From: a bacterium
GTDB taxonomy: Bacteria; SAR324; JACQKK01
Assembly (NCBI GenBank): GCA_965205845.1
Contig: CBDBIG010000003.1
Location: forward strand, 670,305 to 734,304
DNA length: 64,000 nucleotides
Direction of reading: 5' to 3'
The translations under genes were made by a program, and so were the position numbers. The notes beneath the pieces were generated by a model, which saw only the letters and a program-made list of their open reading frames with translations, did no database searches and was not told the DNA's origin. Below are positions 48,510 to 60,928 of the stretch, one piece after another. How positions within the stretch are numbered: the first letter of the stretch is position 1; every line of letters starts with the position of its first letter.

Positions 48510-51500
48510 TTAGCTTAGGTTTTGCGATTTGTGTGTTTTGCTATGGCCAAGCACCCGTTGGCAGGCGAGCACAAAAGTGCCATTTTGCAATGCGTGGTGG
48601 CTTTGTGCATCCATGTAAAAATGGTCGCTAATTTCGCGGCCCACATTGGCCAAGGTAGCCTGGGGAACCTCCACTTGAAATGCATCAAACAACTGACTTA
48701 ATTGATAAAAAACAAAAGGCGCATCATGGAGCTGGATATGTATATAAGGCAGCCTTGTGGGTTTACGTTGATATCCTTCGGGGGTTTCTTGGACAGCGTA
48801 GCTTTTATCGTCTGCGGTATAAAAATGAATCCGAGGTTTTGCCCCAGTTGGCGCTGCACGATGAGAAGGAAACGCGTCGACACCTGGTGTACTCGAACCC
48901 TGATCGACGTCAGGGCTGGGAGACAATGTGGGTGGGGTAAGCAGCGGGGGCGGCACATTGCGAATGCTCCATTCCATGTCACGGTTCCACGATTGGGGCA
49001 AAGAATCGATCGCTGCGGTTTGAAAGGCATAACAATACCCTGTCGCACCCCCTTTAAACCGAACAGGATTAAACTTGCCATTTACAATGTTAATCGCATG
49101 CACGCTGCGGCGGCTGAGTGCATAGGCCACCCGCGTATGCGATTGTTTTAAATTGCGCGTAAAAATTAAAATTTCCGTAAGACCCGTGGCGCTATTGGGC
49201 ATCGAATCAACCAGGACATCATGGCTACGAAACCCCTCAAAACGCATGCTTTGCTTGGCCAATATGGCAGGTGGACAGCGCATAAGGTGGCGATTTGGAA
49301 ATGCATGAAAAAACCAATCTAACAATGCCCCTTCTTTTTGGCTTAACAACAACAAGGTGGGCTGGGGGAGCAAGGCTTGCATGCGCTCTGCAAAGCGTTT
49401 TTCCAAGTACTGGACTTTTTGGTCGTTTGAATCGCCCATGGTTACCTGCAATTGCAAAGCTTCTAGGTTGGCCACATGCCCTTGCAATTGCTGCCATACA
49501 TCGGGGGCGTGTTGGCGCAAAGGGGCATAAAGGGCAGGTCCCATCCCCTGTTCGATGCATTTTTGCACCATCAGCTGAAAGCGGGTTTCGTATTGTTGTT
49601 CATTTTTTTGCACATCCAAACGCTGGTTAATCAGCTCCAAGGCCTCGTTCTCATTGGGAAAACCACGCATCTCTTCGAGCATCATGCAGGTGCGGGCAAA
49701 ACGGTCGCGCAAGGCTTGCTGCTGCGGATAGTGTAAAGGGCCACACGCCCCCAAAGCGGCCAAGTTCATCATAAACAAAAGCAGCAGCGTTTCTAAGCGT
49801 TGTTCAACCAAGGCAAAGCAATGGGCAAGGGCTTCGTCGGTATAGCCCTTGTTGCCAAGCAATACCAAACTGCGGTGATGCAACACCAACAACGTGGCTT
49901 TTTCGCGCATTCCTTGCTGGGTAAACCCCATTTGTGCCATGCCGTGTTGCAAGCATTCGACCCCTGCTTGATGCTGCTTGGCCAGGTCTTCCATCGCTGC
50001 AATGCCACGCGTTCCTTCCAAGTTAGGATGGCTTTCAGGGGCCCCAAAATAGCAGCACACATGCAACAAGGCAGCGCATTTTAAGGCCAAAATATCCTCA
50101 TCACGCAACATCTCATGCCACTGGGGGTATTCTTCTGCCAGGGAATTGAGTTCAATTTGGATTTGGGCTAGGGCTAAAAAAGCGGTCTGATGCAAGGCTG
50201 TATGGCTTTGGTAAGGACCTTGTGGGTATTTGCGCGCAGAATCGATGACGGGCAAAAAGCAACCCAGCAAGCTGCTGGTATGCCAATCAAAAGGATTGGA
50301 GATGGCGCAGGTTTGCTCCAAAATATTCATGGCATGGGGTGCCAGCAAAATCTGCTGCCACCACGTATTTTCCTCGGCTGTAAGCGCAGGCAAAAGGGTT
50401 TTAGCGAGAGGCAGATGGGGAAGAATTTGGCACAAAGCATCTTGCAATGCTGGCGAGAAACACAAACCCGCTTGCGCTGCATGGGCTAGGGTTTCAAGCA
50501 AGGCCATGCGCGTTATGGTAGGTGGCACCAGCACCTTGGGTGTGGCTTTTATCCCTTGGAGTAAAGAGGCTTGCATGGCAGGGGTGGCAACGCCGTGTGT
50601 GGTGGTGGCCTCAATGGCCAAAATATGGCGTTGGGCGGGGTAAATATGGAGGGTTACATGGCTTAGCTGGGTGAGGGTGGTGGGTTCTAACGCGCGTTGA
50701 ATCAGGGTTTTGGCGGTATTGTGTGCCTGTTGCAATAGTTGATGCAACAAGCACCACCCTGCTCCAGGGTTGGTGGTGTGCGGGTGCTGTGTAAAGGGAG
50801 GCGGCATGGCCACGCGATTGCGCTTTGCTGCTGCCAAATCAAACAACTGCTGGGAACGTTTGCTACTTTCGTGCTGGGTAAAGTCCGTATGATGGGCACT
50901 ATTGGCGGCACGCATCACCCAGGCCAATTCAAGGGTACGCCCTAAATGTGCGCATTCCCATACCGAGAGCAACCCTTTTTTGTGGGCTGTTTGCAGCAAG
51001 CTGGCGGGGTGAAAATTGCCCTGGGAGGATCCCCAGGTGGCACCTGCCAACCACAGGGCGTTTTGAATGGCCCGCAAGCCCCCTTGCCCATTTTTTAAGC
51101 GCAAACCCCCTCCGCCACTGGGCTGCAGAGCAAGAGCGCTGAATTCTTGCATTTTTTTTTCAATGTACGCATTGCTGGGGAAAATATCCCAGACTTGTTG
51201 GCGTAATGCGCTCAAAATACCCACATCCCCCCCAAGGTTACGCCCTTCTAAAATGGAGGTTAAAGTGTGCAAGGTTTTAGGTTTGGTAAAGCGCGAAAGA
51301 TCCTCGCCCAGTTCAAAGTACTGGTGGGCAGGGTTAAGGCCTACCGCGCGCAAAATTTCTTGCATCCGCACCACCACCTCACGCAGCAGCAGCGTTTTTG
51401 CAGAGGAATACGCGCGATCGCTCCCCGTGGCACCATGCTCCGCCATGCCATCTTCTTCGAGAACGATACAAGAACCGAGATCAAGGTCGGAATCAAAGCA

Positions 51501-52292
51501 CAGTTCGCCGCGTCCATAGCCTCCACGGGCAAACATGCATAGCTGTGCATGAGCCCAGTGTGGTGTGGGTTCCCAATCATTGAGAGCTGCCACGGTATTT
51601 TCAAGGGCGTGTCGTCGTGCTGCCTCTTGTTTGGCTGCGTTGTTTTTGCGGGCACTTTGCGGTGTTTTTAGGGGCATCGCTTGGCGATTGATGTTGCTGC
51701 GTAAGCGGGCTATGGATACCTCGCGTGAACGGTTGAGGCTCGAGTGACTGCGTATTTTTTTTTGGCGCACGGTCGCCAACCCTTGCTGAGCTTGGGCAAG
51801 CATCACAAAACGCATGGCCTCAAGTTCATTTAGGGCCTGGGTATGTACAAATTGAAGCAGCCCGTCCAATGCCAAGGCCATATCATGAATGGGCGCCATG
51901 GCAATGGGGTGGCTTCGCAGAAAATTTTGGCGTAACGAGGCTTGAATTTTCTTCCAAGCAGCACCGCCTTCACGGGTTAGCAAAGTGGTTCGCGCCTCGA
52001 GCCATTGACACCAGTCGCTTTCGCTGTGGCAGGCCTTTGGCAAGGCTGCTAACTGCTCATCCAAGGTTTGCAGCAATTTTTGGGTGAACGAGACAACGGG
52101 AGTGCTGGCTGTCGCTTGATAACGTAAACCTTGCAGCAGTTCTGTGAGTGCTTGTTGGGGTTCCATAGAGAGCCATGGGAGTTGGGATGGAGGGGCATTT
52201 TTAAGAAGCAACACTCTAGCATAAAGTGTACTGTGTTTAAGCATGCTTGGCATTTGCGCCCGTTGTACCCGTGCCCAAACAGGTGCTGACAT
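48510..52292 (-). CDS. glnD: GlnD-like [protein-PII] uridylyltransferase family protein (nucleotidyltransferase, HD and C-terminal ACT-like domains), unusually long at 1260 aa.
   Basis: NTase motif FARGGYGRGELCFDSDLDLG, HD-like region (LKCAALLHVCCY), C-terminal ACT-like (HIQLHDAPFVFYQLSQLF). A ~250-aa N-terminal extension has no recognised motif. Confidence 0.6.
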   Translation of the reverse strand: MSAPVWARVQRAQMPSMLKHSTLYARVLLLKNAPPSQLPWLSMEPQQALTELLQGLRYQATASTPVVSFTQKLLQTLDEQLAALPKACHSESDWCQWLEARTTLLTREGGAAWKKIQASLRQNFLRSHPIAMAPIHDMALALDGLLQFVHTQALNELEAMRFVMLAQAQQGLATVRQKKIRSHSSLNRSREVSIARLRSNINRQAMPLKTPQSARKNNAAKQEAARRHALENTVAALNDWEPTPHWAHAQLCMFARGGYGRGELCFDSDLDLGSCIVLEEDGMAEHGATGSDRAYSSAKTLLLREVVVRMQEILRAVGLNPAHQYFELGEDLSRFTKPKTLHTLTSILEGRNLGGDVGILSALRQQVWDIFPSNAYIEKKMQEFSALALQPSGGGGLRLKNGQGGLRAIQNALWLAGATWGSSQGNFHPASLLQTAHKKGLLSVWECAHLGRTLELAWVMRAANSAHHTDFTQHESSKRSQQLFDLAAAKRNRVAMPPPFTQHPHTTNPGAGWCLLHQLLQQAHNTAKTLIQRALEPTTLTQLSHVTLHIYPAQRHILAIEATTTHGVATPAMQASLLQGIKATPKVLVPPTITRMALLETLAHAAQAGLCFSPALQDALCQILPHLPLAKTLLPALTAEENTWWQQILLAPHAMNILEQTCAISNPFDWHTSSLLGCFLPVIDSARKYPQGPYQSHTALHQTAFLALAQIQIELNSLAEEYPQWHEMLRDEDILALKCAALLHVCCYFGAPESHPNLEGTRGIAAMEDLAKQHQAGVECLQHGMAQMGFTQQGMREKATLLVLHHRSLVLLGNKGYTDEALAHCFALVEQRLETLLLLFMMNLAALGACGPLHYPQQQALRDRFARTCMMLEEMRGFPNENEALELINQRLDVQKNEQQYETRFQLMVQKCIEQGMGPALYAPLRQHAPDVWQQLQGHVANLEALQLQVTMGDSNDQKVQYLEKRFAERMQALLPQPTLLLLSQKEGALLDWFFHAFPNRHLMRCPPAILAKQSMRFEGFRSHDVLVDSMPNSATGLTEILIFTRNLKQSHTRVAYALSRRSVHAINIVNGKFNPVRFKGGATGYCYAFQTAAIDSLPQSWNRDMEWSIRNVPPPLLTPPTLSPSPDVDQGSSTPGVDAFPSHRAAPTGAKPRIHFYTADDKSYAVQETPEGYQRKPTRLPYIHIQLHDAPFVFYQLSQLFDAFQVEVPQATLANVGREISDHFYMDAQSHHALQNGTFVLACQRVLGHSKTHKSQNLS

Positions 52293-52756: not shown

Positions 52757-52917
52757 CCTTAGATTGACCTTTTTAGAATAAATGCCTTTACAAAGTACTT
52801 GGCTATGCATAAATACCAAAGCCTTTGTGAGCCTTTTAAAAAAAGCATGAGCAAGCCCTTTGACCCCCGTTAAAAAAACCATCACTCCCCCTCAAATTGT
52901 TAAAAACTCAGAGAAAA
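52757..52917. repeat. Left copy of a ~160-bp direct repeat (rnr leader / 5' coding sequence) bracketing the MTase cassette.
   Basis: ctaccccccatgcccttagcccttagattgacctttttagaataaatgcctttacaaagtacttggctatgcataaataccaaagcctttgtgagcc... is ~93% identical to 54719-54900. Confidence 0.9.
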
Positions 52918-53840
52918 AATGGATTAACAAAATCCATACTGGTGATGCGCAAAAAATATTAAGGGACATGCCATCAGATTTTATTGATCTAAGTTTTTGG
53001 TCCCCGCCATATTTTGTAGGTAAGGAGTATGAGAAGTACCTATCTTTTGATGATTGGAAGAGACTGCTTGAAGGGGTTGTTTGTGGGCATGCCCGTGTTA
53101 TGAGGGACGGTGCTTTTATGGTGATAAACATCAACGATATTTTATGCTTTCCTGATCCGAGCATGCCTAGGTATATGTCTAACAATATTGGTAATAAGAG
53201 GGTACCCGTCACCAGGCAAGATGCATTAGATGCCAAACGTAAAAACCCTGATGCAAACCGTTATGAACTAGCAAAAATTCTTGGGTGTAGCGAACAAACT
53301 GTACAGCGCAGACTTGAGCATAACAATATACGTGGTGGGAAGCAGGCTACCGCCACAAAAGTTTTGTCAGTAGCTGGAATGCTACAAGCGTGGAGTGAAG
53401 CAGCGGGGCTCTATCTGTATGACCGCCGCATTTGGCATAAAGACCCATGCTGGGCAAATAGCCGATGGCATAGCAATTCATATAGATCGATTGATGAGTT
53501 TGAATATCTTTTCATATTCTGGAAACCAGGCATTGTTGACATTGACCGGTCTCGCCTTAAAAAAAACGAATGGGCTGAATGGGGGTCACGGGGGGTTTGG
53601 AATATAAAATCAATTCGCCACAATAACCGCCATGAGAGTGAATTTCCTGAAATGCTGGCGGAACGAGTTATACGCCTTTTGTCTAATCCTGAAGGTGTTG
53701 TGCTAGACCCGTTTGTTGGTTCCGGCACCACAACTGCCGTTGCCCGCCGCCTCAAACGCAGATATGTTGGCATAGACAGGCTTGATAAATATGCCGTAAT
53801 TGCCAGGGATAGAACGAATGCAATCGATAAAACGGATTGA
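52860..53840 (+). CDS. Beta-class DNA methyltransferase (SPPY...DPFVGSGTT) with an inserted HTH-like segment, in a lower-GC cassette.
   Basis: IDLSFWSPPYFVGKEYEK (motif IV region resembling the 6.5-kb pseudogene) ... EFPEMLAERVIRLL...VVLDPFVGSGTTTAVARRLKRRYVGID. The ORF opens at TTG inside the duplicated rnr leader; the first codons (TPVKKTITPPQIVKNSE) mirror the RNase R N-terminus. Confidence 0.85.
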   Translation: MTPVKKTITPPQIVKNSEKKWINKIHTGDAQKILRDMPSDFIDLSFWSPPYFVGKEYEKYLSFDDWKRLLEGVVCGHARVMRDGAFMVININDILCFPDPSMPRYMSNNIGNKRVPVTRQDALDAKRKNPDANRYELAKILGCSEQTVQRRLEHNNIRGGKQATATKVLSVAGMLQAWSEAAGLYLYDRRIWHKDPCWANSRWHSNSYRSIDEFEYLFIFWKPGIVDIDRSRLKKNEWAEWGSRGVWNIKSIRHNNRHESEFPEMLAERVIRLLSNPEGVVLDPFVGSGTTTAVARRLKRRYVGIDRLDKYAVIARDRTNAIDKTD

Positions 53841-54459
53841 GGATGCCGAGAGATCTTGCATCAGATTAGTGTCTCGCGCCCTACGAGATTATAGGGATAA
53901 GGCGGTTGAAATCTTCAGAGAAGAATCCGATAAACCTGGTAATATAGCAGAAGATGTAACAAGGGAAGCTATGGATGCTCTTGGTACGTCACGGGTTCCG
54001 ATACGGCTGTATGGTAAAGTTGATGATAAACGTGCCGCGATAGTCTTTTTGTCGGATAGAGAAGTTGAAGTCGCCATGATGGTTGACCCCAAAGCTGAGA
54101 AGGATGGAAATACCGCGACCATTCAAATGTCTCAGACATCAATGCAAATTAGGCAATATAGGCAGGGGGAGGAAATTTGTGTTAATGGTACGCTACCGCC
54201 GTTTATTGAAAGAGAAGGCAAAAAACTTCAAACCATAACCATAATTGTAAAATATATTTACACCGAAATAACGACGCAGAAGTTTATCTTGGAAAAGATT
54301 AAAGTCGCCTGCATACCTAACGGTCTACTTCAGGAAAGTTACAACCCCAATGCACAAGATGGTTTTTGGAGGGTAGGCCGTAATGCACCTTCATTGGGGG
54401 AGGATTTTCGGGTGCGCCTCTCATTTAGTGATCTTCAAAAAAAGCAGAATGGCGAGTAG
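53818..54459 (+). CDS. Unknown protein translationally coupled to the MTase; candidate cognate restriction endonuclease or other partner (unclassified).
   Basis: ATG at 53818 overlaps the MTase stop (53840) by 23 bp; 214 aa, lower GC, no recognised family. A possible PD-(D/E)xK-like stretch (VDDK...SDREVEVAMMVDPK) is speculative. Confidence 0.45.
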   Translation: MQSIKRIEDAERSCIRLVSRALRDYRDKAVEIFREESDKPGNIAEDVTREAMDALGTSRVPIRLYGKVDDKRAAIVFLSDREVEVAMMVDPKAEKDGNTATIQMSQTSMQIRQYRQGEEICVNGTLPPFIEREGKKLQTITIIVKYIYTEITTQKFILEKIKVACIPNGLLQESYNPNAQDGFWRVGRNAPSLGEDFRVRLSFSDLQKKQNGE

Positions 54460-54718
54460 TTGAGGTTTAAACAACTTCCAAATGGCAAATTTGAGGGGGA
54501 TATCAGACCATAAGCAAGAACAACTCACCTCAAAACCAATGATAGAGGCAAAACCTCACAGGTATTAACCGTTAAAAGCAAAACGTCGGGCAGGCGTGCG
54601 CATGCAAGCCTGCGCCCGAAAATTTGGCAACATGAATCTTGGATTAGGTCGCGGTGAGAAAAATTAGCGGCGCTTAATAACACAGAAAAAAATGTGACTT
54701 TGGTATATAATTCCCTCT

Positions 54719-54900
54719 TAACTACCCCCCATGCCCTTAGCCCTTAGATTGACCTTTTTAGAATAAATGCCTTTACAAAGTACTTGGCTATGCATAAATA
54801 CCAAAGCCTTTGTGAGCCTTTTAAAAACAGCATGAGCAGCCCTTTGACCCCCGTTAAAAAAACCGTCCCCCCCCTCGAAATTGTCAAAAATTCAGAGAAT
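54719..54900. repeat. Right copy of the ~160-bp direct repeat (authentic rnr leader and start).
   Basis: See the left copy. The right copy has intact atgagcagccctttgacccccgttaaaaaaacc (MSSPLTPVKK); the left copy has a 1-bp insertion (agcaagccc) that breaks that frame. Confidence 0.9.
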
Positions 54901-56973
54901 AACACATCTGCCCAAGAACAAACATGGGAGGGCCCTTTGTTTGTGCACCCTGGCGGCTTTGGTTTTTTGGAATGCGAGGAACGCCAGGAATCCTTGTTTA
55001 TTCCCGCACGTTTTATGAAGGGAGCCCTCGATGGCGACTGGGTGTTGGCGGGGCTCCTTCCGCCCGAAGCTAGGCGCGAGCGTGAGGCTGGGCAAGTGCT
55101 TGAAGTGCTGCGCCGCCGTTGCACCCGATTGGCTGCCCGCTTAGAGTGGGATCAAGGCGAATTATGGGCCCTGCCTTTTAATGCCAAACTCCCCGATGTA
55201 TGGGTAGAACCCGCCAGCATGCCCAAGGCCAAAGATGGCGATGTGGTCGAGGTGGAAATTCACTATTATCCGCAAGATTCGAAAGAGTCCCCCGAAGGGC
55301 GAGTAGCCAAAGCATTACCAAACAAGGACAACCCTTATGCATGGGCGCAGCGGGTTACCCTCGATCTTAATCCACCACTAGAATTTCCTAAAACGTGCTT
55401 GAAAGAGGCCTCCCAAGCCAGCGAGGGCATCACCTATAAAGGGCGTGAAGATTTATGCCATTTGCCTTTTGTTACCATTGATGGCGAGGATGCACGCGAT
55501 TTTGACGATGCCATTGCTTGGATAGCCAACAAAGAAGGCAGCCACGCAGGCGGCGTGTTGTATGTGGCCATTGCTGATGTGGCAGAATTGGTGGCACCCC
55601 GAAGTGCTATGGATGAGGAGGCCTGTACACGCGGATTTAGTTATTATTATCCGACCCACATGGTGCCCATGTTACCCGAGCGTCTGTGCACCGATTTATG
55701 CAGCCTACGCCCCCAGGTAGCACGCCACACCCTTACTTGCGAAATGCATTTGGATGCCCTGGGCAACACCCTGCAAAGCCGCGTGTTTGAAAGCGTGATT
55801 GAAAGCCGTGCAAGGCTAACCTATGCCCAAGTGATGCAATTATTTGAGACACAGCGCGCCAGCGGCCCCATTACCCAAGAAATCGCCAAGATGCTGTTCC
55901 GCTTGCGCCCTATGGCAAAAATCATGGAGCACATGCGTCAAAACCGTGGTGGGCTTCGCTTTACTTTTCCTGAAAGGCGCTTTGAAATCAACGACCAAGG
56001 GATGCCCGTCAACATTCACTTGGCATGGCCCAGCGAGAGCACCAAACTCATTGAACAGTGCATGCTTCAGGCGAACGAGGCGGTGGCAGAATACGCAGCC
56101 CAGCAAAAACTCCCGTTTTTACGTCGTGTACACGAAGCCCCTGCGGCCGATGCCTTGGCCACCTTGCAAGAAAATTTGGGCGCTTTTGGGATTCCTATCT
56201 CCCCCAAAGGGCTCGCCACCCCCGGGGTTTTGGGGCAGGTGCTTAAAGCCATTGCAAAGCACGATGCCCAAGAACGCCTCGAAATCATGGTGCTGCGCGC
56301 GTTGAAGCAAGCGCGCTATGCCGCGACATCTTTAGGGCATTTTGCCTTGGGCGCCCAGCATTACGCACATTTTACCTCGCCCATTCGACGCTACCCCGAC
56401 CTGTTGCTTCACCGCGTGCTTAAAGCCCATTTGCGCAAAGCCCCCAAAATCCCCCAGCTCCCTTCCCATGCGGGTTCGTTACTTTCCCAAGCGGAACGCG
56501 TGGCCGATGAAGCGAGTGGGCGCGTGAACAAGCTGTTTCAGGTGTTGTATATGGAAGGCTACCTTGGTAAAAGTTTTATGGCGACTGTGGCCAATATTTC
56601 CGACCAAGGGGCATGGCTGCGCTTACAAGACCCACCCGTTGAAGGCTTGCTCCCCTTGGTGCTTTTTCCCAAACAAACGCGCTACCAACAAGATGGCAAG
56701 TGTATTCTTGTGCCCAAGCAGCCAGCCATCGAAATTGGAACCTTGCTCGAATGCCAGCTGGTGCATGCCGAGCGCCAAAGCTATAGCCTTGAATTTTTGT
56801 ACGTTAAGCAGGTACCGTCCGCCGATCCCCCCAAAAAGCGAGCACTAAAACCGCCCAGCCCCGTGCTAAAAAAAAGAGCAAAAAGAGCCATCCCCAAAAG
56901 AATGCAGGCCTATAAGGGGAAGGGCACCCCCCATCCATCCCTAGCCTTATTTCGTTCTGGGGATACGCCATAA
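54832..56973 (+). CDS. rnr: Ribonuclease R (RNB-family 3'-5' exoribonuclease).
   Basis: N-terminal OB region (HPGGFGFLE), RNB catalytic domain (HFALGAQHYAHFTSPIRRYPDLLLHR), C-terminal S1 and basic tail. The ORF opens at 54784; the likely start is MSSPL at 54832. Confidence 0.9.
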   Translation: MSSPLTPVKKTVPPLEIVKNSENNTSAQEQTWEGPLFVHPGGFGFLECEERQESLFIPARFMKGALDGDWVLAGLLPPEARREREAGQVLEVLRRRCTRLAARLEWDQGELWALPFNAKLPDVWVEPASMPKAKDGDVVEVEIHYYPQDSKESPEGRVAKALPNKDNPYAWAQRVTLDLNPPLEFPKTCLKEASQASEGITYKGREDLCHLPFVTIDGEDARDFDDAIAWIANKEGSHAGGVLYVAIADVAELVAPRSAMDEEACTRGFSYYYPTHMVPMLPERLCTDLCSLRPQVARHTLTCEMHLDALGNTLQSRVFESVIESRARLTYAQVMQLFETQRASGPITQEIAKMLFRLRPMAKIMEHMRQNRGGLRFTFPERRFEINDQGMPVNIHLAWPSESTKLIEQCMLQANEAVAEYAAQQKLPFLRRVHEAPAADALATLQENLGAFGIPISPKGLATPGVLGQVLKAIAKHDAQERLEIMVLRALKQARYAATSLGHFALGAQHYAHFTSPIRRYPDLLLHRVLKAHLRKAPKIPQLPSHAGSLLSQAERVADEASGRVNKLFQVLYMEGYLGKSFMATVANISDQGAWLRLQDPPVEGLLPLVLFPKQTRYQQDGKCILVPKQPAIEIGTLLECQLVHAERQSYSLEFLYVKQVPSADPPKKRALKPPSPVLKKRAKRAIPKRMQAYKGKGTPHPSLALFRSGDTP

Positions 56974-57082
56974 GCGGTTCTTTTCAGCCTTGCCCGCAAA
57001 GGCTGGCCCAGCCACCACAACCATGGCAGTAGATCCTATTTAGAACGCAAACAAGAAGGCAATCTGCCACCAACCACTAGGG

Positions 57083-59007
57083 TTGTGCCCATTCACATGC
57101 TTTGCCACCACTAAGGACAATGGCGCAAAAAAGCGGGTGTGCCCATTCACATGGTTTTACACTGGTCAAAATTTAATGGTTGTGCCCATTCACATGCTTT
57201 GCCACGGGTCAAAATTTAATGGTTTTTTGTGGTTTTTCAACGGTTTACGGGCAGTGTGTTTACGCTAAAAAGGTGGTGGCACGTGTCCCGCCCAAAAAAC
57301 GGTGGTATGCGGGTTTGCGCGTTTTTCGTTCACATGGCGTAAGACTTTTTCGAGGGCCCTGTAGAGGGAATTCTAAAGGGTTGGAAAATGTTCGAAAGGG
57401 ATTTACAATGCCGCGTCCCGTGGCGATCACCGCAAAGTCTTCTGCGGGGCTCATGTCGGCAGGGCAGGTGGTTTTTACGCTTAAGGGCTTTTTTTGCTGC
57501 CAGCCCGCCAACGCGCATCGGGCCTTCGCCAATGGCTAACCATTGGATAGAAATATTGGCTTTTTGTGCAATAAGCACACATTTTTCGATGCCGGGTTTA
57601 ATAGCGCCGCTCACATACTGCCCTATTAAGTTCCCATCAATACCTACTTTTGGGACAGCGCACGCTTGGCTACAGGCGTTTGCAACAGGCCGCTACTCTG
57701 CATCGCTGGCACATACCCAGCCTCCCCACCTTAAAGCGCCGTGTTTTGGCCGAGCTCCCCCACCTGAGTGCGCACCCTTGCCCGCCGCGGCGCAACACCT
57801 CTTAATGCCACATTTCCCTCGCAAAAGCGTTTGCTTAAAAGACCTTTTCGCCTTGGCCCTCGTTTGTGGCGATGGCCACCGCTTTGATGTTTTTACCCAA
57901 TGGCCAAAGGTCAAAAAGCCCTGCAGTCCATGCTCAAAGGCCATTGCAAGATATTTACGAGGGGCAAATTCCTCAGTTGGCGCCTCGGGCGGAGCGAGAA
58001 CAGCGACCTGGTGCGCGTTGCCTTTTCAAGCATTTTGCGCGACTTTGGCGTGCCTTTAGGCATGCTGCGCGATAACAGCCCGCGCTCGGGCGGAGCAAAG
58101 CCACACGCCCCCCAGCGCTTTCGCTTTAAAATCAAAGCAAGAAGACCCCCTATGGTTTGCTCACGGCTTTGGGCTGCACCATCCACTGGGCACAGCCTTA
58201 TCACGGCCAGGCAAAATCGATTGAGCGCGCCTTTTTAGACCTGTGCGAAAGCATCGCCAAACATCCCGCCTGCCCAGGCGCATACACGGGCAACAGCCCC
58301 ACGCAACAATTCCCTCATCAAGCCCGGGAATTACACGCAAAAAGCGATTCCCATTGCCACCTTTCGCGCTCTGGTCGAGCAGCAAATAGGTTACCACAAT
58401 GCCCATCCAAGGGCGCACCGGGGGGCTTATGTAACGGGCGTTCTTTTGATGCGGTGTTTGCACAAAGTTACGCAGCCAGCCCCATCACCCAGGCCACCGC
58501 CCAGCCAGCAGCGTAGTTTTTTACGCGCCAGCCGAGCAAATCAAGGCCCACAAATACGATGCCAGGGTGCGCATCTTGAGTGCAAACCTTGGTCAAGACG
58601 TGCTCAACCGCTACGATGCAAAAAACACCCCCTTCTACCTCGACTTAGCCCTACCACGGGCACGAAAAGCGACTACGGCAAGGTTTTTTTGTTGAGCGAA
58701 GACTTTGAAAGTCTCGCAACGGTTAAAGGGCAAGGCAAGTTTCTACTGAGCATCACTAACAAAGGGGGCAAGCGATTGATGGTAAAATCGATAGGTAAAA
58801 AAGGTGCCATCTGAAATTAAACGGCGAAACCGACGGTGGCAAACCATGGGAAAGAAGATGCAAAACCATGTGAACGTTTACACTAAGCATTCATTGCCAT
58901 AAAGGGATTGAATTTTATACGCAACAAAACATGCCAATATAAATAGGCTCCAGAATGACCAGTGGCAAAGCATGTGAAAGGTGACAAGGGGTAAACCATG
59001 GGAATGG
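57083..59007. mobile_element. Decayed DDE transposon remnant (~1.9 kb) with inverted termini and three subterminal 15-bp repeats at each end. The interior carries frameshifted rve-type integrase fragments.
   Basis: Left end: gtgcccattcacatg at 57085, ~57136 and ~57183. Right end inverted: gtggcaaagcatgtgaa (58963-58979) is the exact reverse complement of ttcacatgctttgccac (57093-57109), with further catgtgaa / catgggaa copies at ~58857 and ~58996. Interior frames carry DNSPRSGG (cf. DNGxEF) and AQPYHGQAKSIERAF (cf. PY.PQ.KG.IER) in different frames. Confidence 0.6.
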
Positions 59008-59119
59008 TTATAGCGATTGTGGTCGTGGAGACGCTTTTGCGTGAACTCTCAATCTGAGGAGCAGACAAAAGGCAGCATGAATACCGTACAAAGGATGCTA
59101 TCTGGCGTCGTTCCCTTTT

Positions 59120-60928
59120 TTATGCTGGTTTTTCATTTAATCTAGGGCGCGTTCTGGGCCGAATAGGCGATTTTCTCCCGCCAAGGCGGAGCATAGCCAA
59201 ACACAAAAACCAAAGGCCGAGCAGTGCCCAGTGCATGTACAAAGCGATGCGCGTGTACACCGAGGCCCCATGCAAAGGGATGGTTAAGGTGCTTGCCCAA
59301 TATGCGGGGGCAAAATGGGGGGTGAGCGGCAGGTTGCGCTCGCCCAGTGCGTTAAACCCTTGGCTTTGCCCATTTTGGGAGAGCAACGCCATGGGCATGC
59401 GGTGCTCCACAGCGCGCACCCGTGCATACCAGGCAAACTGCCTGCTAACGGGGCTTTTGCCAAACCAAGCCAGGTTGGCTTGTACCAGCCCTAGGTTGGC
59501 ACCGTTTTGGGCCATTCCCAGGGTTATCCGCTGGTCTAAAAGGTCAAAGCAAATCAAAGGTGCTGCCCTTATGGTATTCGAAAGCGCAAAGACGCTGTGC
59601 CGCGTGCCTTGAGTAAACAAACCAATATTGGGTATTTGACGCTTCAACCAGTGCTCCCAGGCGGGCAACCAGCGGCCTAAGGGAATGGTTTCGCCAAAGG
59701 GAATAAGTGCTATTTTGTGGTAGAGGCCTTTTATTTGTCCTTGGGTTCCAAGGTGTACCGAAACCCCGTAAATATCTTTTGCCTTTGCTCGCCACGTCGG
59801 AAAAATGATCTGGGTATTGTGTTGGAGCGCAAATCGTCGCACGCGCAGCAGTGAAACAGGATCGTGCAGGGGGGCTAAATACACCGACTCAGGCCACAGC
59901 AGCACGCGTGGAATAGGGTGCTTGGCAGCAGGCAACTGGCTTAAAACCCCCTGGGATTGCGCCAACAAACGGCCCAGGCTTTGCCGACGGGTGGAATAAA
60001 CCAAGGCTGGGTTTGAGGCCAGATGCCCAAGGGAAAAATTGGGTTGAACGGCAGCCAAATGCAATGTCGAGGTCGCTTGGCGGGGTTTTTTGTGAGGGCC
60101 CTTTAGCTGTTGGGTGCGTCGCACCCCATACCCCAAGGTAAGGGCAAAGGTGCCCACCGCCACCACCACCAGCCAAGGAAGCCCTTTGTAAGGGTGGGTA
60201 TTGGGCCACAACCAGCAACAGAGCAGCTCAAACAAAAGCAGGTGCCACAGCAAAAGCAACCACGTTAAACCCGAGCTGCCAATGAGGTCCGCACTTTGCA
60301 GCAGCAAGGGAAAAGCACTGAGGGTTTGTCCAAAGGTATAGCCCAACAAACGGGGTAAAAACCATTGTCCAAGCAAGCAGGTGAGTGGCAGAGCAAAGGC
60401 ACGGAGCATGCGCTGTTTGCGAAAAATCCAAAAGCCTCCCCCAAGCAAAATCCCCCATTCAACACCCTGCAGCAAGCCATAACCAAGATTGATCCCCCAG
60501 GCGGCACTGCGGGGTAAACGCCCGTATACGTGGGCGGTATTTACCACCCATTCACCACCGAGCATGGCTGCAATGCACCCTGCAACACTGGCCAACGCCA
60601 AGGCCGTGCCAAGGCCGTTCAAACGGTTGGCAAACAACCCGCGTGCACGGCTGCGCTTCCCTTGCGTGCGGTGGTTTGCAGATTGTTGATACCATGTCCA
60701 TTCAATGGACACAAACAAGGGTACACTAAAACAGAGCACGGCCAATGCATAAGGCTGGGGGGCAATTGCCAAGTGCCCTAACCAACCCGCCAAAGCGGCA
60801 AGTAGCCACGCGAGCCCCCGTTTAACACCCCGCTGCCGCACCATGGTATGGGCAAGCGATTGGGTTATTTTGAAGGTTTTTGTGTGTGCTCTCCTTGGGT
60901 CCATACTCAAAAACGCGCTTTGCATCAA
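59120..60928 (-). CDS. lnt: Apolipoprotein N-acyltransferase.
   Basis: N-terminal multi-TM region plus C-terminal CN-hydrolase domain (AAVQPN...WPE), 602 aa. Confidence 0.8.
   Translation of the reverse strand: MMQSAFLSMDPRRAHTKTFKITQSLAHTMVRQRGVKRGLAWLLAALAGWLGHLAIAPQPYALAVLCFSVPLFVSIEWTWYQQSANHRTQGKRSRARGLFANRLNGLGTALALASVAGCIAAMLGGEWVVNTAHVYGRLPRSAAWGINLGYGLLQGVEWGILLGGGFWIFRKQRMLRAFALPLTCLLGQWFLPRLLGYTFGQTLSAFPLLLQSADLIGSSGLTWLLLLWHLLLFELLCCWLWPNTHPYKGLPWLVVVAVGTFALTLGYGVRRTQQLKGPHKKPRQATSTLHLAAVQPNFSLGHLASNPALVYSTRRQSLGRLLAQSQGVLSQLPAAKHPIPRVLLWPESVYLAPLHDPVSLLRVRRFALQHNTQIIFPTWRAKAKDIYGVSVHLGTQGQIKGLYHKIALIPFGETIPLGRWLPAWEHWLKRQIPNIGLFTQGTRHSVFALSNTIRAAPLICFDLLDQRITLGMAQNGANLGLVQANLAWFGKSPVSRQFAWYARVRAVEHRMPMALLSQNGQSQGFNALGERNLPLTPHFAPAYWASTLTIPLHGASVYTRIALYMHWALLGLWFLCLAMLRLGGRKSPIRPRTRPRLNEKPA

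What the first reader, a model, noticed from the sequence alone, without database searches (positions are those of the whole stretch)
57083..59007. Decayed transposon remnant with triple subterminal repeats at both ends, between rnr and lnt
The ends are exact inverted 17-mers (ttcacatgctttgccac / gtggcaaagcatgtgaa). Each end carries three copies of a ~15-bp motif (gtgcccattcacatg), the architecture of multi-site transposase binding (Tn7/Mu/Tn552-like). The interior has DDE-integrase-like fragments (DNSPRSGG; AQPYHGQAKSIERAF) in different frames, so the transposase is dead. It could still be mobilisable in trans, MITE-like.
Basis: partly seen in the sequence, partly recalled or inferred. Interest (0 to 1): 0.5.

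Follow-up and report, generated by a model that had tools for sequence, protein, structure and literature searches.

The report
Amplified natural mini-Mu phage remnant
This 1.9-kb insert between rnr and lnt is a gutted Mu-type transposable phage that keeps only its transposase-binding ends, and the same gutted version sits at six or more other places in the genome, so it spread as a parasite of full-length relatives.

Summary
The element runs 57084-58986 (1,903 bp) with 5'-TG...CA-3' tips. It has three exact 16-mers at the left end, three degenerate inverted copies at the right end, and a 4/5-matching 5-bp flanking duplication (AGGGT/AGGGG).

It is Mu-type, not Tn7- or Tn552-like. The interior holds three gene remnants:
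- a minus-strand CI-type repressor fragment;
- Mu transposase residues ~200-526 (Pfam DDE_2, E 2.6e-15), broken by about nine frame switches;
- the C-terminal stub of a DNA adenine methylase, in the position where Mu carries mom.

Both internal deletion junctions, and several of the frameshifts, recur in near-identical pseudo-ORFs at six or more other loci on large contigs (877,621, 771,172, 707,169 and 540,308 bp) that appear to belong to the same genome. Two of those ORFs read through the right tip and then diverge into different flanks. So the deleted, transposase-dead element multiplied by transposition in trans: a natural mini-Mu.

Possible helpers exist. Six or more longer copies encode a 645-aa Mu-type transposase, 37% identical end to end to phage transposases. 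All of them carry the same +1 frameshift.

DNA of the other copies could not be fetched, so copy-level evidence is protein-based. I rate this a new variant of a known kind, of moderate interest.

The parts
57079..57083 (.). Left copy of the putative 5-bp target-site duplication (AGGGT).
   Evidence: Matches AGGGG at 58987-58991 in 4 of 5 positions. The chance of >=4/5 is 0.016. Mu-type transposition makes 5-bp duplications (established knowledge).
57084..57108 (+). L1, the terminal transposase-binding-type site TGTGCCCATTCACATGCTTTGCCAC. The left tip is 5'-TG.
   Evidence: It matches phage Mu L1 (TGTATTGATTCACTTGAAGTACGAA) at 14/25 positions, including TGT....ATTCAC.TG.
57138..57162 (+). L2 site, TGTGCCCATTCACATGGTTTTACAC, 54 bp from L1.
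   Evidence: L2 plus its spacer forms a 43-bp tandem duplication with L3 (57135-57177 and 57178-57220, 88%).
57181..57205 (+). L3 site, identical to L1, 43 bp from L2.
57294..57320 (.). Conserved left-end box AAAAAACGGTGGTATGCGGGTTTGCGC. Its function is unknown.
   Evidence: Matches 26 of 27 positions at the equivalent place inside the left end of a full Mu-like prophage on metagenome contig L007.
57330..57614 (-). Remnant of the CI-type (Mu c-like) repressor gene. It lacks about the first 32 codons and most of the C-terminal part.
   Evidence: Pfam Phage_CI_repr E 8.6e-4, below the curated cut-off; PHROG transcriptional repressor E 5.7e-4. 43% identity over 35 aa to residues 33-67 of the L007 prophage repressor. 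It has the same position and strand as c in Mu.
57615..57661 (.). Deletion junction 1. It removed the repressor N-terminus, the operator/enhancer region, ner and the first ~200 codons of the transposase.
   Evidence: The junction is spanned by pseudo-ORF 57388-58059, which recurs almost unchanged as P0002, P0021, P0022, P0023 and P0024.
57662..58659 (+). Mu-type (MuA-like) DDE transposase pseudogene covering residues ~200-526 of a 645-aa protein. It has about nine frame switches, stop codons and a small deletion after the DN motif. It includes D (VCGDGHRFDV), D (LRDNSPR) and E (GQAKSIERAF).
   Evidence: Pfam DDE_2 E 2.6e-15; HTH_Tnp_Mu_2 E 0.022; PHROG 310 transposase E 1.6e-34. tblastn mapping against the composite transposase is.
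57959..57968 (+). GAG GGG C AAA, the site of a +1 frameshift shared with all full-length-type copies in the genome.
   Evidence: The relative L007 is in frame at this point.
58660..58685 (.). Deletion junction 2: transposase residue ~526-540 joined to the 3' end of the methylase gene.
   Evidence: The same junction is read by P0156, P0157 and P0158 from other loci.
58686..58814 (+). C-terminal remnant of a DNA adenine methyltransferase gene, in the position where Mu carries mom. This copy has a further deletion of about 90 nt.
   Evidence: The longer version from sister copies matches PHROG 56 and 1996 DNA methyltransferase (E 9e-8 and 2.6e-6) and phage DNA adenine methylases (E 2e-6). Pfam found nothing.
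58836..58860 (-). R3 site, degenerate: CATCTTCTTTCCCATGGTTTGCCAC.
   Evidence: 17/25 to L1.
58858..58882 (-). R2 site, TGTAAACGTTCACATGGTTTTGCAT, abutting R3.
   Evidence: 19/25 to L2.
58962..58986 (-). R1, the terminal site TGTCACCTTTCACATGCTTTGCCAC. The right tip is ...CA-3' at 58986.
   Evidence: 22/25 to L1. Sister copies P0159 and P0160 stay identical up to the codon at this position and then diverge.
58987..58991 (.). Right copy of the putative target-site duplication (AGGGG).
58988..59012 (-). R0, a seventh site-like sequence (TATAACCATTCCCATGGTTTACCCC) lying outside the element and overlapping the right duplication. Unexplained.
   Evidence: 2 mismatches in 17 to the R3 core. The only such matches in 64 kb are at this locus. 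18/25 to L1.

Best explanation
The element at 57084-58986 is a non-autonomous, internally deleted derivative of a Mu-like transposable phage, in effect a natural mini-Mu.

Two deletions reduced a phage of layout attL-c-ner-A-B...methylase-attR to attL-'c-'A'-'methylase-attR. It keeps both multi-site ends but no working gene.

Inferred mechanism: a Mu-type transposase supplied in trans by a longer family member binds the three sites at each end and pairs the ends. It nicks at the terminal CA and joins the 3' ends to target DNA cut with a 5-bp stagger, which leaves a 5-bp duplication.

What is shown: the anatomy, the family assignment, and the presence of the same deleted and frameshifted element at several loci with different flanks.

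What is inferred: binding to the sites, the source of the transposase, and whether spread was by replicative transposition or by helper packaging and reintegration.

The copy in this window is the most decayed one seen. It carries extra frameshifts, a small deletion in the catalytic core and a ~90-nt deletion in the methylase stub. It is therefore probably a fossil, although its termini still look usable.
For: Family assignment:
- The stitched interior hits Pfam DDE_2 'Bacteriophage Mu transposase' (E 2.6e-15, positions 4-221 of 221) and PHROG transposase (E 1.6e-34).
- The repressor remnant lies on the opposite strand next to the left end, as in Mu.
- The adenine-methylase stub lies next to the right end, as in FluMu and Pnme1 (PMC3299994).
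- The tips are TG...CA, with three sites per end at unequal spacing (54 and 43 bp on the left; 104 and 22 bp on the right). Mu has the same design (PMC3145075).
- A 5-bp duplication matches at 4/5 positions (p=0.016).
- The left-end architecture, including a box matching at 26 of 27 positions, is shared with a full Mu-like prophage (c, ner, A, B, gam, gemA, terminase, portal) on L007.

Amplification after inactivation:
- Pseudo-ORF 57388-58059 spans junction 1 and four frame switches. It recurs with at most one substitution as P0002, P0021, P0023 (identical to the window) and P0024; P0022 is the same up to residue ~174 and then follows the parental sequence. Together these lie on six contig places. 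Three distinct versions sit on the 877,621-bp contig alone.
- Junction 2 recurs in P0156, P0157 and P0158. P0159-P0162 cover the same right end.
- P0159 and P0160 are identical up to ...QNDQWQSMWPAT, which is 12 nt after GCATG and the same position as 58986. They then diverge, and both differ from the window's flank.

Possible helpers:
- The N-halves P0014, P0015, P0025 and P0026 and the C-halves P0003 and P0001 join into a 645-aa protein. It aligns over 99% of its length at 37% identity (E 4e-131) to transposases of Mu-like phages.
Against: - No DNA of the sister copies could be retrieved. Copy number, flanks and duplications elsewhere therefore rest on pseudo-ORF translations and on contig-length fields. 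That the four large contigs belong to one genome is an assumption.
- The target duplication is imperfect (4/5).
- Every full-length-type transposase gene found carries the same +1 frameshift, and no uninterrupted ~645-aa transposase from those contigs was among the hits, so no demonstrably functional helper is known.
- The operator/enhancer region is deleted. In Mu this lowers transposition about 100-fold unless it is supplied in trans (PMC3145075).
- An extra site-like sequence (R0) just outside the right tip is not explained by this model.
Confidence: 0.82

Rival explanations
1. A single Mu-like prophage decayed in place by deletions and never moved again. The other copies are independent decay products of separate full-length prophages.
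For: Defective Mu-like prophages are common. The window copy is heavily decayed.
Against: Independent decay would not reproduce the same two deletion junctions and the same four frame switches, with near-identical sequence, at six or more loci.
Confidence: 0.05
2. The copies spread by segmental duplication, gene conversion or recombination between repeats, not by transposition.
For: Mosaic variants such as P0022 and P0026 show recombination among family members. No sister-copy DNA was available to check duplications.
Against: P0159, P0160 and the window diverge from one another exactly at the terminal ACN/ACA, so the unit of duplication ends at the transposon tip. This copy sits cleanly in an intergenic spacer and is flanked by AGGGT/AGGGG.
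Confidence: 0.06
3. A remnant of a Tn7-like, Tn552-like or Tn5053-like bacterial transposon (TnsB/TniA-type transposase) rather than of a phage.
For: These families also have TG...CA tips, several subterminal transposase sites, 5-bp duplications and a related DDE fold (general knowledge).
Against: - The best and only significant Pfam hit is DDE_2 (Mu). Pfam rve was not reported at E<=1.
- Family members carry the Mu-specific HTH_Tnp_Mu_1 and HTH_Tnp_Mu_2 domains.
- The full-length alignment is to phage transposases.
- The repressor and methylase remnants follow the Mu gene order.
- The closest full relative is a prophage with MuB, Gam, GemA and portal genes.
Confidence: 0.02
4. The longer family members are not phages but a phage-derived transposon family that lost its virion genes. 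The mini elements would then parasitise a transposon rather than a phage.
For: Six or more long plus six or more mini copies appear to sit in one genome. That is many for 35-40-kb prophages. No structural phage gene from the source genome was seen.
Against: The methylase at the right end, the repressor, and the L007 relative all point to a phage parent.
Confidence: 0.2

Closest known systems
Bacteriophage Mu and Mu-like transposable prophages (for example FluMu and Pnme1; phages POA1180, vB_ThpS-P1, Aussie, martha 12B12)
   Same: - Mu-type DDE transposase. The family's 645-aa protein is 34-39% identical over 93-99% of its length to the listed phage transposases.
- TG...CA tips.
- Three transposase sites per end at unequal spacing.
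- A repressor on the opposite strand beside attL.
- A DNA-modification gene beside attR. In FluMu and Pnme1 this is an adenine methylase (PMC3299994).
- A 5-bp duplication.
   Different: - Only 1.9 kb instead of about 37 kb.
- No ner, no B, no virion genes, and no intact gene at all.
- The deleted form itself is multicopy.
- The end-site sequence is only 14/25 identical to Mu L1.
Laboratory mini-Mu(LR) constructs
   Same: Both consist of L and R ends without phage functions. Such constructs transpose when MuA (and MuB) are supplied in trans, and the enhancer can be absent or act in trans (PMC3145075).
   Different: This element arose naturally. It carries gene debris instead of markers and has amplified in a wild genome. 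Its mobility has not been shown experimentally.
Prokaryotic MITEs and other non-autonomous IS derivatives (Correia, ERIC, MITEAba12)
   Same: No transposase of its own, retained ends, many copies at different loci, and presumed dependence on a transposase supplied in trans.
   Different: - Its parent is a transposable phage, not an insertion sequence.
- It is 1.9 kb rather than under ~0.6 kb.
- It has multi-site asymmetric ends rather than simple terminal inverted repeats.
- A 2024 review of prokaryotic MITEs mentions no Mu- or prophage-derived family.
Tn7 / Tn552 / Tn5053 family transposons
   Same: A related DDE fold, TG...CA tips, several subterminal sites and 5-bp duplications.
   Different: The Pfam assignment is DDE_2 with the Mu HTH domains, not rve. 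The accessory gene remnants are phage-type.

Membership tests
Mu-like transposable phage (element derived from one) | Mu-type DDE transposase core (Pfam DDE_2, PF02914) | tested here: met
   E 2.6e-15, 57.2 bits against a cut-off of 23, profile positions 4-221 of 221, on the frame-stitched remnant. It is a pseudogene.
Mu-like transposable phage (element derived from one) | MuA N-terminal DNA-binding domains (HTH_Tnp_Mu_1, HTH_Tnp_Mu_2) | tested here: inconclusive
   In the window only a tail of domain I-gamma remains (E 0.022, below the cut-off). The first ~200 codons are deleted. Sister long copies P0014 and P0015 carry PF09039 and PF02316.
Mu-like transposable phage (element derived from one) | Termini 5'-TG...CA-3' | tested here: met
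   57084-57085 is TG and 58985-58986 is CA. Phage Mu itself has the same tips.
Mu-like transposable phage (element derived from one) | Several transposase-binding sites at each end, with different spacing at the two ends | tested here: met
   Three sites on the left and three on the right by sequence. They are enriched well over shuffles. Actual binding was not tested.
Mu-like transposable phage (element derived from one) | 5-bp target-site duplication | tested here: inconclusive
   AGGGT against AGGGG, 4 of 5 positions, p=0.016. No other copy's DNA was available.
Mu-like transposable phage (element derived from one) | Gene order attL, c (reverse strand), ner, A, B ... modification gene, attR | tested here: met
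   Remnants of c (-), A (+) and an adenine methylase (+) lie in that order and orientation. ner and B fall inside the deletions.
Mu-like transposable phage (element derived from one) | Virion and lysis genes; ability to form particles | tested here: not met
   None are present in the 1.9 kb. This copy is therefore a derivative, not a phage. Whether the long sister copies have such genes could not be tested.
Non-autonomous element (MITE-like / mini-transposon) | No functional transposase gene of its own | tested here: met
   About nine frame switches, stop codons, and loss of residues 1-200 and ~527-645.
Non-autonomous element (MITE-like / mini-transposon) | The same deleted structure present in several copies at different loci | tested here: met
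   Junction 1 appears in five sequence variants on six contig places. Junction 2 appears in P0156, P0157 and P0158, and P0159-P0162 cover the right end. Flanks differ after the tip. This is protein-level evidence only.
Non-autonomous element (MITE-like / mini-transposon) | An autonomous partner with matching ends in the same genome | tested here: inconclusive
   Six or more loci encode both halves of a 645-aa transposase. All are interrupted by one shared +1 frameshift, and their ends could not be read.
Non-autonomous element (MITE-like / mini-transposon) | Small size (typically under ~600 bp) with simple terminal inverted repeats | tested here: not met
   It is 1,903 bp with multi-site ends. 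'Mini-Mu' is the better label than MITE.
Tn7-like / Tn552-like transposon | rve-type TnsB/TniA transposase with TnsA/TnsC/TniB-type partners | tested here: not met
   No rve hit at E<=1. The only significant hit is DDE_2. The accessory remnants are a phage repressor and a methylase.

The most novel reading that the evidence does not exclude
The mini elements are natural satellites of a transposable phage. They would be copied by the helper's transposase during lytic replication and, because they keep the left end, packaged by headful together with adjacent host DNA. The shared GAG-GGG-C-AAA interruption in every full-length transposase gene would then be a leaky or programmed +1 recoding site that throttles transposase supply, not a lethal mutation.
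Probability: 0.12. Interest if true: 0.75.

Novelty: new variant of a known kind. Interest (0 to 1): 0.5.

Why it matters
Mini-Mu elements are known as laboratory constructs. Defective Mu-like prophages are known as single fossils.

Here a doubly deleted, transposase-dead Mu derivative appears to have multiplied on its own to six or more copies. It sits in a deep-branching, poorly sampled bacterium whose nearest RNase R relative is only 43% identical. That would show that transposable phages, like insertion sequences, spawn non-autonomous parasite families.

My literature searches found no such case. That only shows absence from the searched library.

There are two practical consequences. Short pseudo-ORFs in such genomes are element debris, not genes. 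The defined ends together with a reconstructable 645-aa transposase could serve as a genetic tool for this lineage.

Tried and rejected
Searches that returned nothing useful:
- Exact end-motif scans of genome contigs, metagenome contigs and viral contigs gave nothing, or six single chance hits in viral contigs.
- Scans for the conserved left-end box gave nothing.
- Protein-guided locus searches with the composite transposase in genome contigs and viral contigs found no relatives.
- The look-up of encoding contigs found no record for P0002, P0003, P0014, P0035 or the window's own pseudo-ORF.
- An exact look-up of ten window ORFs, including rnr and lnt, failed, probably because the start codons differ from the deposited gene calls.
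- Rfam at E<=0.1 over 56800-59300 found nothing.
- blastn against phages found only a 119-nt transposase-core match.

Readings considered and rejected:
- Pfam did not recognise the methylase stub. PHROGs and tblastn did.
- A Tn7/Tn552 reading was rejected on domain content.
- A right terminus at 59012, with R0 as the terminal site, was rejected. That position has no TSD match and a TA tip, and sister copies diverge at the 58986-equivalent position.
- A recoding site conserved across the wider family was not supported, because L007 is in frame there.
- Composition gives no foreign signal. The element interior has GC 0.55-0.57, like the host.
Full report
**Observation**

The region was read directly and scanned for repeats.
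- TGTGCCCATTCACATG occurs exactly at 57084, 57138 and 57181. In the whole 64-kb window, matches at <=3 mismatches number 6 against 1.12 expected, and no shuffle reached 6.
- The 17-mer TTCACATGCTTTGCCAC is exact at 57092, at 57189 and, inverted, at 58962.

Written as 25-mers reading inward, the sites are:

| Site | Sequence | Match |
|---|---|---|
| L1 = L3 | TGTGCCCATTCACATGCTTTGCCAC | reference |
| L2 | TGTGCCCATTCACATGGTTTTACAC | 22/25 to L1 |
| R1 | TGTCACCTTTCACATGCTTTGCCAC | 22/25 to L1 |
| R2 | TGTAAACGTTCACATGGTTTTGCAT | 19/25 to L2 |
| R3 | CATCTTCTTTCCCATGGTTTGCCAC | 17/25 to L1 |

The left end therefore has three exact copies. Site spacing is 54 and 43 bp on the left, and 104 and 22 bp on the right. 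L2 and L3 belong to a 43-bp tandem duplication.

**Boundaries**

The tips are 5'-TG at 57084 and CA-3' at 58986, giving 1,903 bp. The five bases outside each tip are AGGGT and AGGGG. The chance of a 4/5 match or better is 0.016.

A seventh site-like sequence, R0 (58988-59012, reverse strand), lies just outside the right tip. It has 2 mismatches in 17 to the R3 core. Three things argue against R0 being the true terminus:
- it would end in TA;
- it would have no flanking duplication;
- pseudo-ORFs from two sister copies (P0159 and P0160) are identical up to the codon that corresponds to 58984-58986 and then diverge from each other and from the window.

R0 remains unexplained.

**What the interior is**

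Six-frame translation and a tblastn map show pieces of one protein spread over three frames between 57662 and 58659. Stitched together, they hit:
- Pfam DDE_2 'Bacteriophage Mu transposase' (E 2.6e-15, full profile);
- weakly, the Mu I-gamma DNA-binding subdomain;
- PHROG 310 transposase (E 1.6e-34).

The first aspartate is in VCGDGHRFDV.

On the minus strand, 57614-57330 encodes the tail of a CI-type helix-turn-helix. The library scores are modest (E ~6-9e-4). It is 43% identical over 35 residues to residues 33-67 of the repressor of a related prophage.

The last 130 nt before the right-end sites (58686-58814) are the C-terminal stub of a DNA adenine methyltransferase. Pfam missed it. The longer version preserved in sister copies matches PHROG 56 and 1996 (E 9e-8 and 2.6e-6) and phage adenine methylases, some of which sit at the extreme right end of ~37-38-kb phage genomes.

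The order is attL, repressor (reverse strand), transposase, modification gene, attR. This is the order in phage Mu and in FluMu and Pnme1, where an adenine methylase replaces mom (PMC3299994). Mu L1 and this L1 share TGT....ATTCAC.TG (14/25).

Tn7- and Tn552-type assignments are excluded, because no rve hit appeared and the accessory remnants are phage-type.

**Relatives**

A protein search with the stitched remnant found two kinds of hit.

Distant full-length Mu-type transposases:
- One of them, P0008, lies on metagenome contig L007.
- That contig carries a full Mu-like prophage: repressor, Ner-like HTH, A, B, Gam, GemA, terminase and portal.
- Its left end has a similar terminal site (TGTGCTCAAGCAAATGCTTTGCGAC), a T-rich tract, and a box matching window 57294-57320 at 26 of 27 positions.

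Short proteins from NCBI/ENA contigs of 877,621, 771,172, 707,169 and 540,308 bp:
- The window's RNase R is 100% identical to P0035 on the 877,621-bp contig, so the window comes from that contig.
- The next RNase R is only 43% identical. Named hits are SAR324 and 'Deltaproteobacteria' MAGs at 36-38%, so the host is a poorly sampled lineage.

**Evidence that the deleted element multiplied**

The meaningless ORF 57388-58059 runs antisense through the repressor remnant, across deletion junction 1, and through four of the transposase frame switches.
- It is identical to P0023.
- It differs by one residue from P0002, P0021 and P0024 over more than 220 residues.
- P0022 is the same up to residue ~174 and then follows the parental sequence.
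- These five variants lie on six contig places. Three distinct variants are on the 877,621-bp contig alone.

Identical out-of-frame translations require collinear DNA. Junction 1 and those frameshifts are therefore shared by descent.

Junction 2 (transposase ~526 joined to the methylase tail) is read by P0156, P0157 and P0158. P0159-P0162 cover the same right end.

Sister copies keep about 90 nt of methylase sequence, and an intact LLDNGRAFAS segment, that the window copy has lost. The window copy is thus the most decayed.

Shared lesions, private lesions, and divergence exactly at the tip together are what transposition of an already dead element predicts. They are hard to obtain by independent decay or by segmental duplication.

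**Possible helpers**

Four N-terminal halves (P0014, P0015, P0025, P0026; 319-323 aa, with Mu HTH domains) and the C-terminal halves (P0003, P0001) occur on six or more contig places.

Joined at ...QDVYEG|KIVAW..., they give a 645-aa protein. It aligns over 99% of its length at 37% identity (E 4e-131) with the transposase of Ochrobactrum phage POA1180, and similarly with other Mu-like phages.

Every N-half ends after the same +1 frameshift, at GAG GGG C AAA. The window has the same GGGG-C at 57961-57965. L007 is in frame there (QDVYSRKILAWRIG), so this is not a family-wide recoding site. It may be a founder mutation or a leaky site, and I could not test which. No uninterrupted ~645-aa transposase from those contigs was among the hits.

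**Mechanism**

By analogy with Mu (PMC3145075), transposase supplied in trans would bind the L and R sites, pair the ends, nick at the CA tips and transfer strands into a 5-bp staggered target.
- The operator/enhancer region lies inside deletion 1, so the element corresponds to a mini-Mu(LR).
- In Mu the enhancer stimulates transposition about 100-fold but can act in trans.
- Simple insertions such as this one could arise by non-replicative integration after helper packaging. That step is inference only.

**Limits**

All sister-copy evidence is at protein level. The source genome could not be reached by any DNA tool. Copy numbers are lower bounds inferred from cluster tables. That the four large contigs are one genome is an assumption.

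**Comparison and novelty**

The element works like a laboratory mini-Mu and behaves like a MITE, but at 1.9 kb with multi-site ends it is not a MITE in the strict sense. Its sequence, tips and gene order place it as a derivative of a Mu-like phage. It fails the 'phage' criterion of carrying virion genes.

Searches of the paper library for natural mini-Mu or Mu-derived non-autonomous families found none, and a 2024 review of prokaryotic MITEs lists none. That only shows absence from that library.

I rate it a new variant of a known kind, with interest 0.5.

Noticed in passing
window 58988-59012 (- strand): A seventh transposase-site-like 25-mer (R0) lies 1 nt outside the right tip and overlaps the right target duplication. 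It may be a solo end of an older insertion, or a sign of insertion next to an existing end. It is not explained.
   Followed up: partly
window 57959-57968; sister proteins P0014, P0015, P0025, P0026: All full-length-type transposase genes of the source genome, and the window remnant, share one +1 frameshift at GAG GGG C AAA. Otherwise their two halves are open. The relative L007 is in frame there. This could be a dead founder or a leaky or programmed recoding site.
   Followed up: partly
window 52860-54459: An N6/N4 DNA methylase (PF01555, E 1.6e-37) lies next to an SfiI-like type II restriction enzyme (PF11487, E 1.4e-44). At least the restriction-enzyme half (54000-54799) has GC 0.41-0.42, against about 0.54 in neighbouring genes. 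It is probably an acquired restriction-modification island just upstream of rnr.
   Followed up: partly
window 48510-52292 (- strand): A 1,260-aa ORF with no Pfam family at E<=1e-4.
   Followed up: no
protein P0155 (771,172-bp contig), next to another mini copy: A minus-strand pseudo-ORF contains six or more tandem 10-aa (30-nt) units, FCGKGCGAVA. Back-translated to the + strand, these would contain CCTTTGCCACAAAA, which resembles the CTTTGCCAC half of the end sites. It may be an array of half-sites beside that copy.
   Followed up: no
L007 6990-7050: Six tandem GGGTTTTTGT units lie just inside the left end of the full Mu-like prophage. The window element has one degenerate version at 57218-57238.
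   Followed up: no
protein P0157 (540,308-bp contig): In one sister copy the methylase stub runs into a DnaB-N-terminal-like sequence (PF00772, E 0.0015). That copy is truncated or rearranged at its right side.
   Followed up: no
window 57135-57220: Sites L2 and L3 with their spacers form a 43-bp tandem duplication (88% identical). The third left-end site may therefore be a recent duplication rather than an ancestral site.
   Followed up: partly
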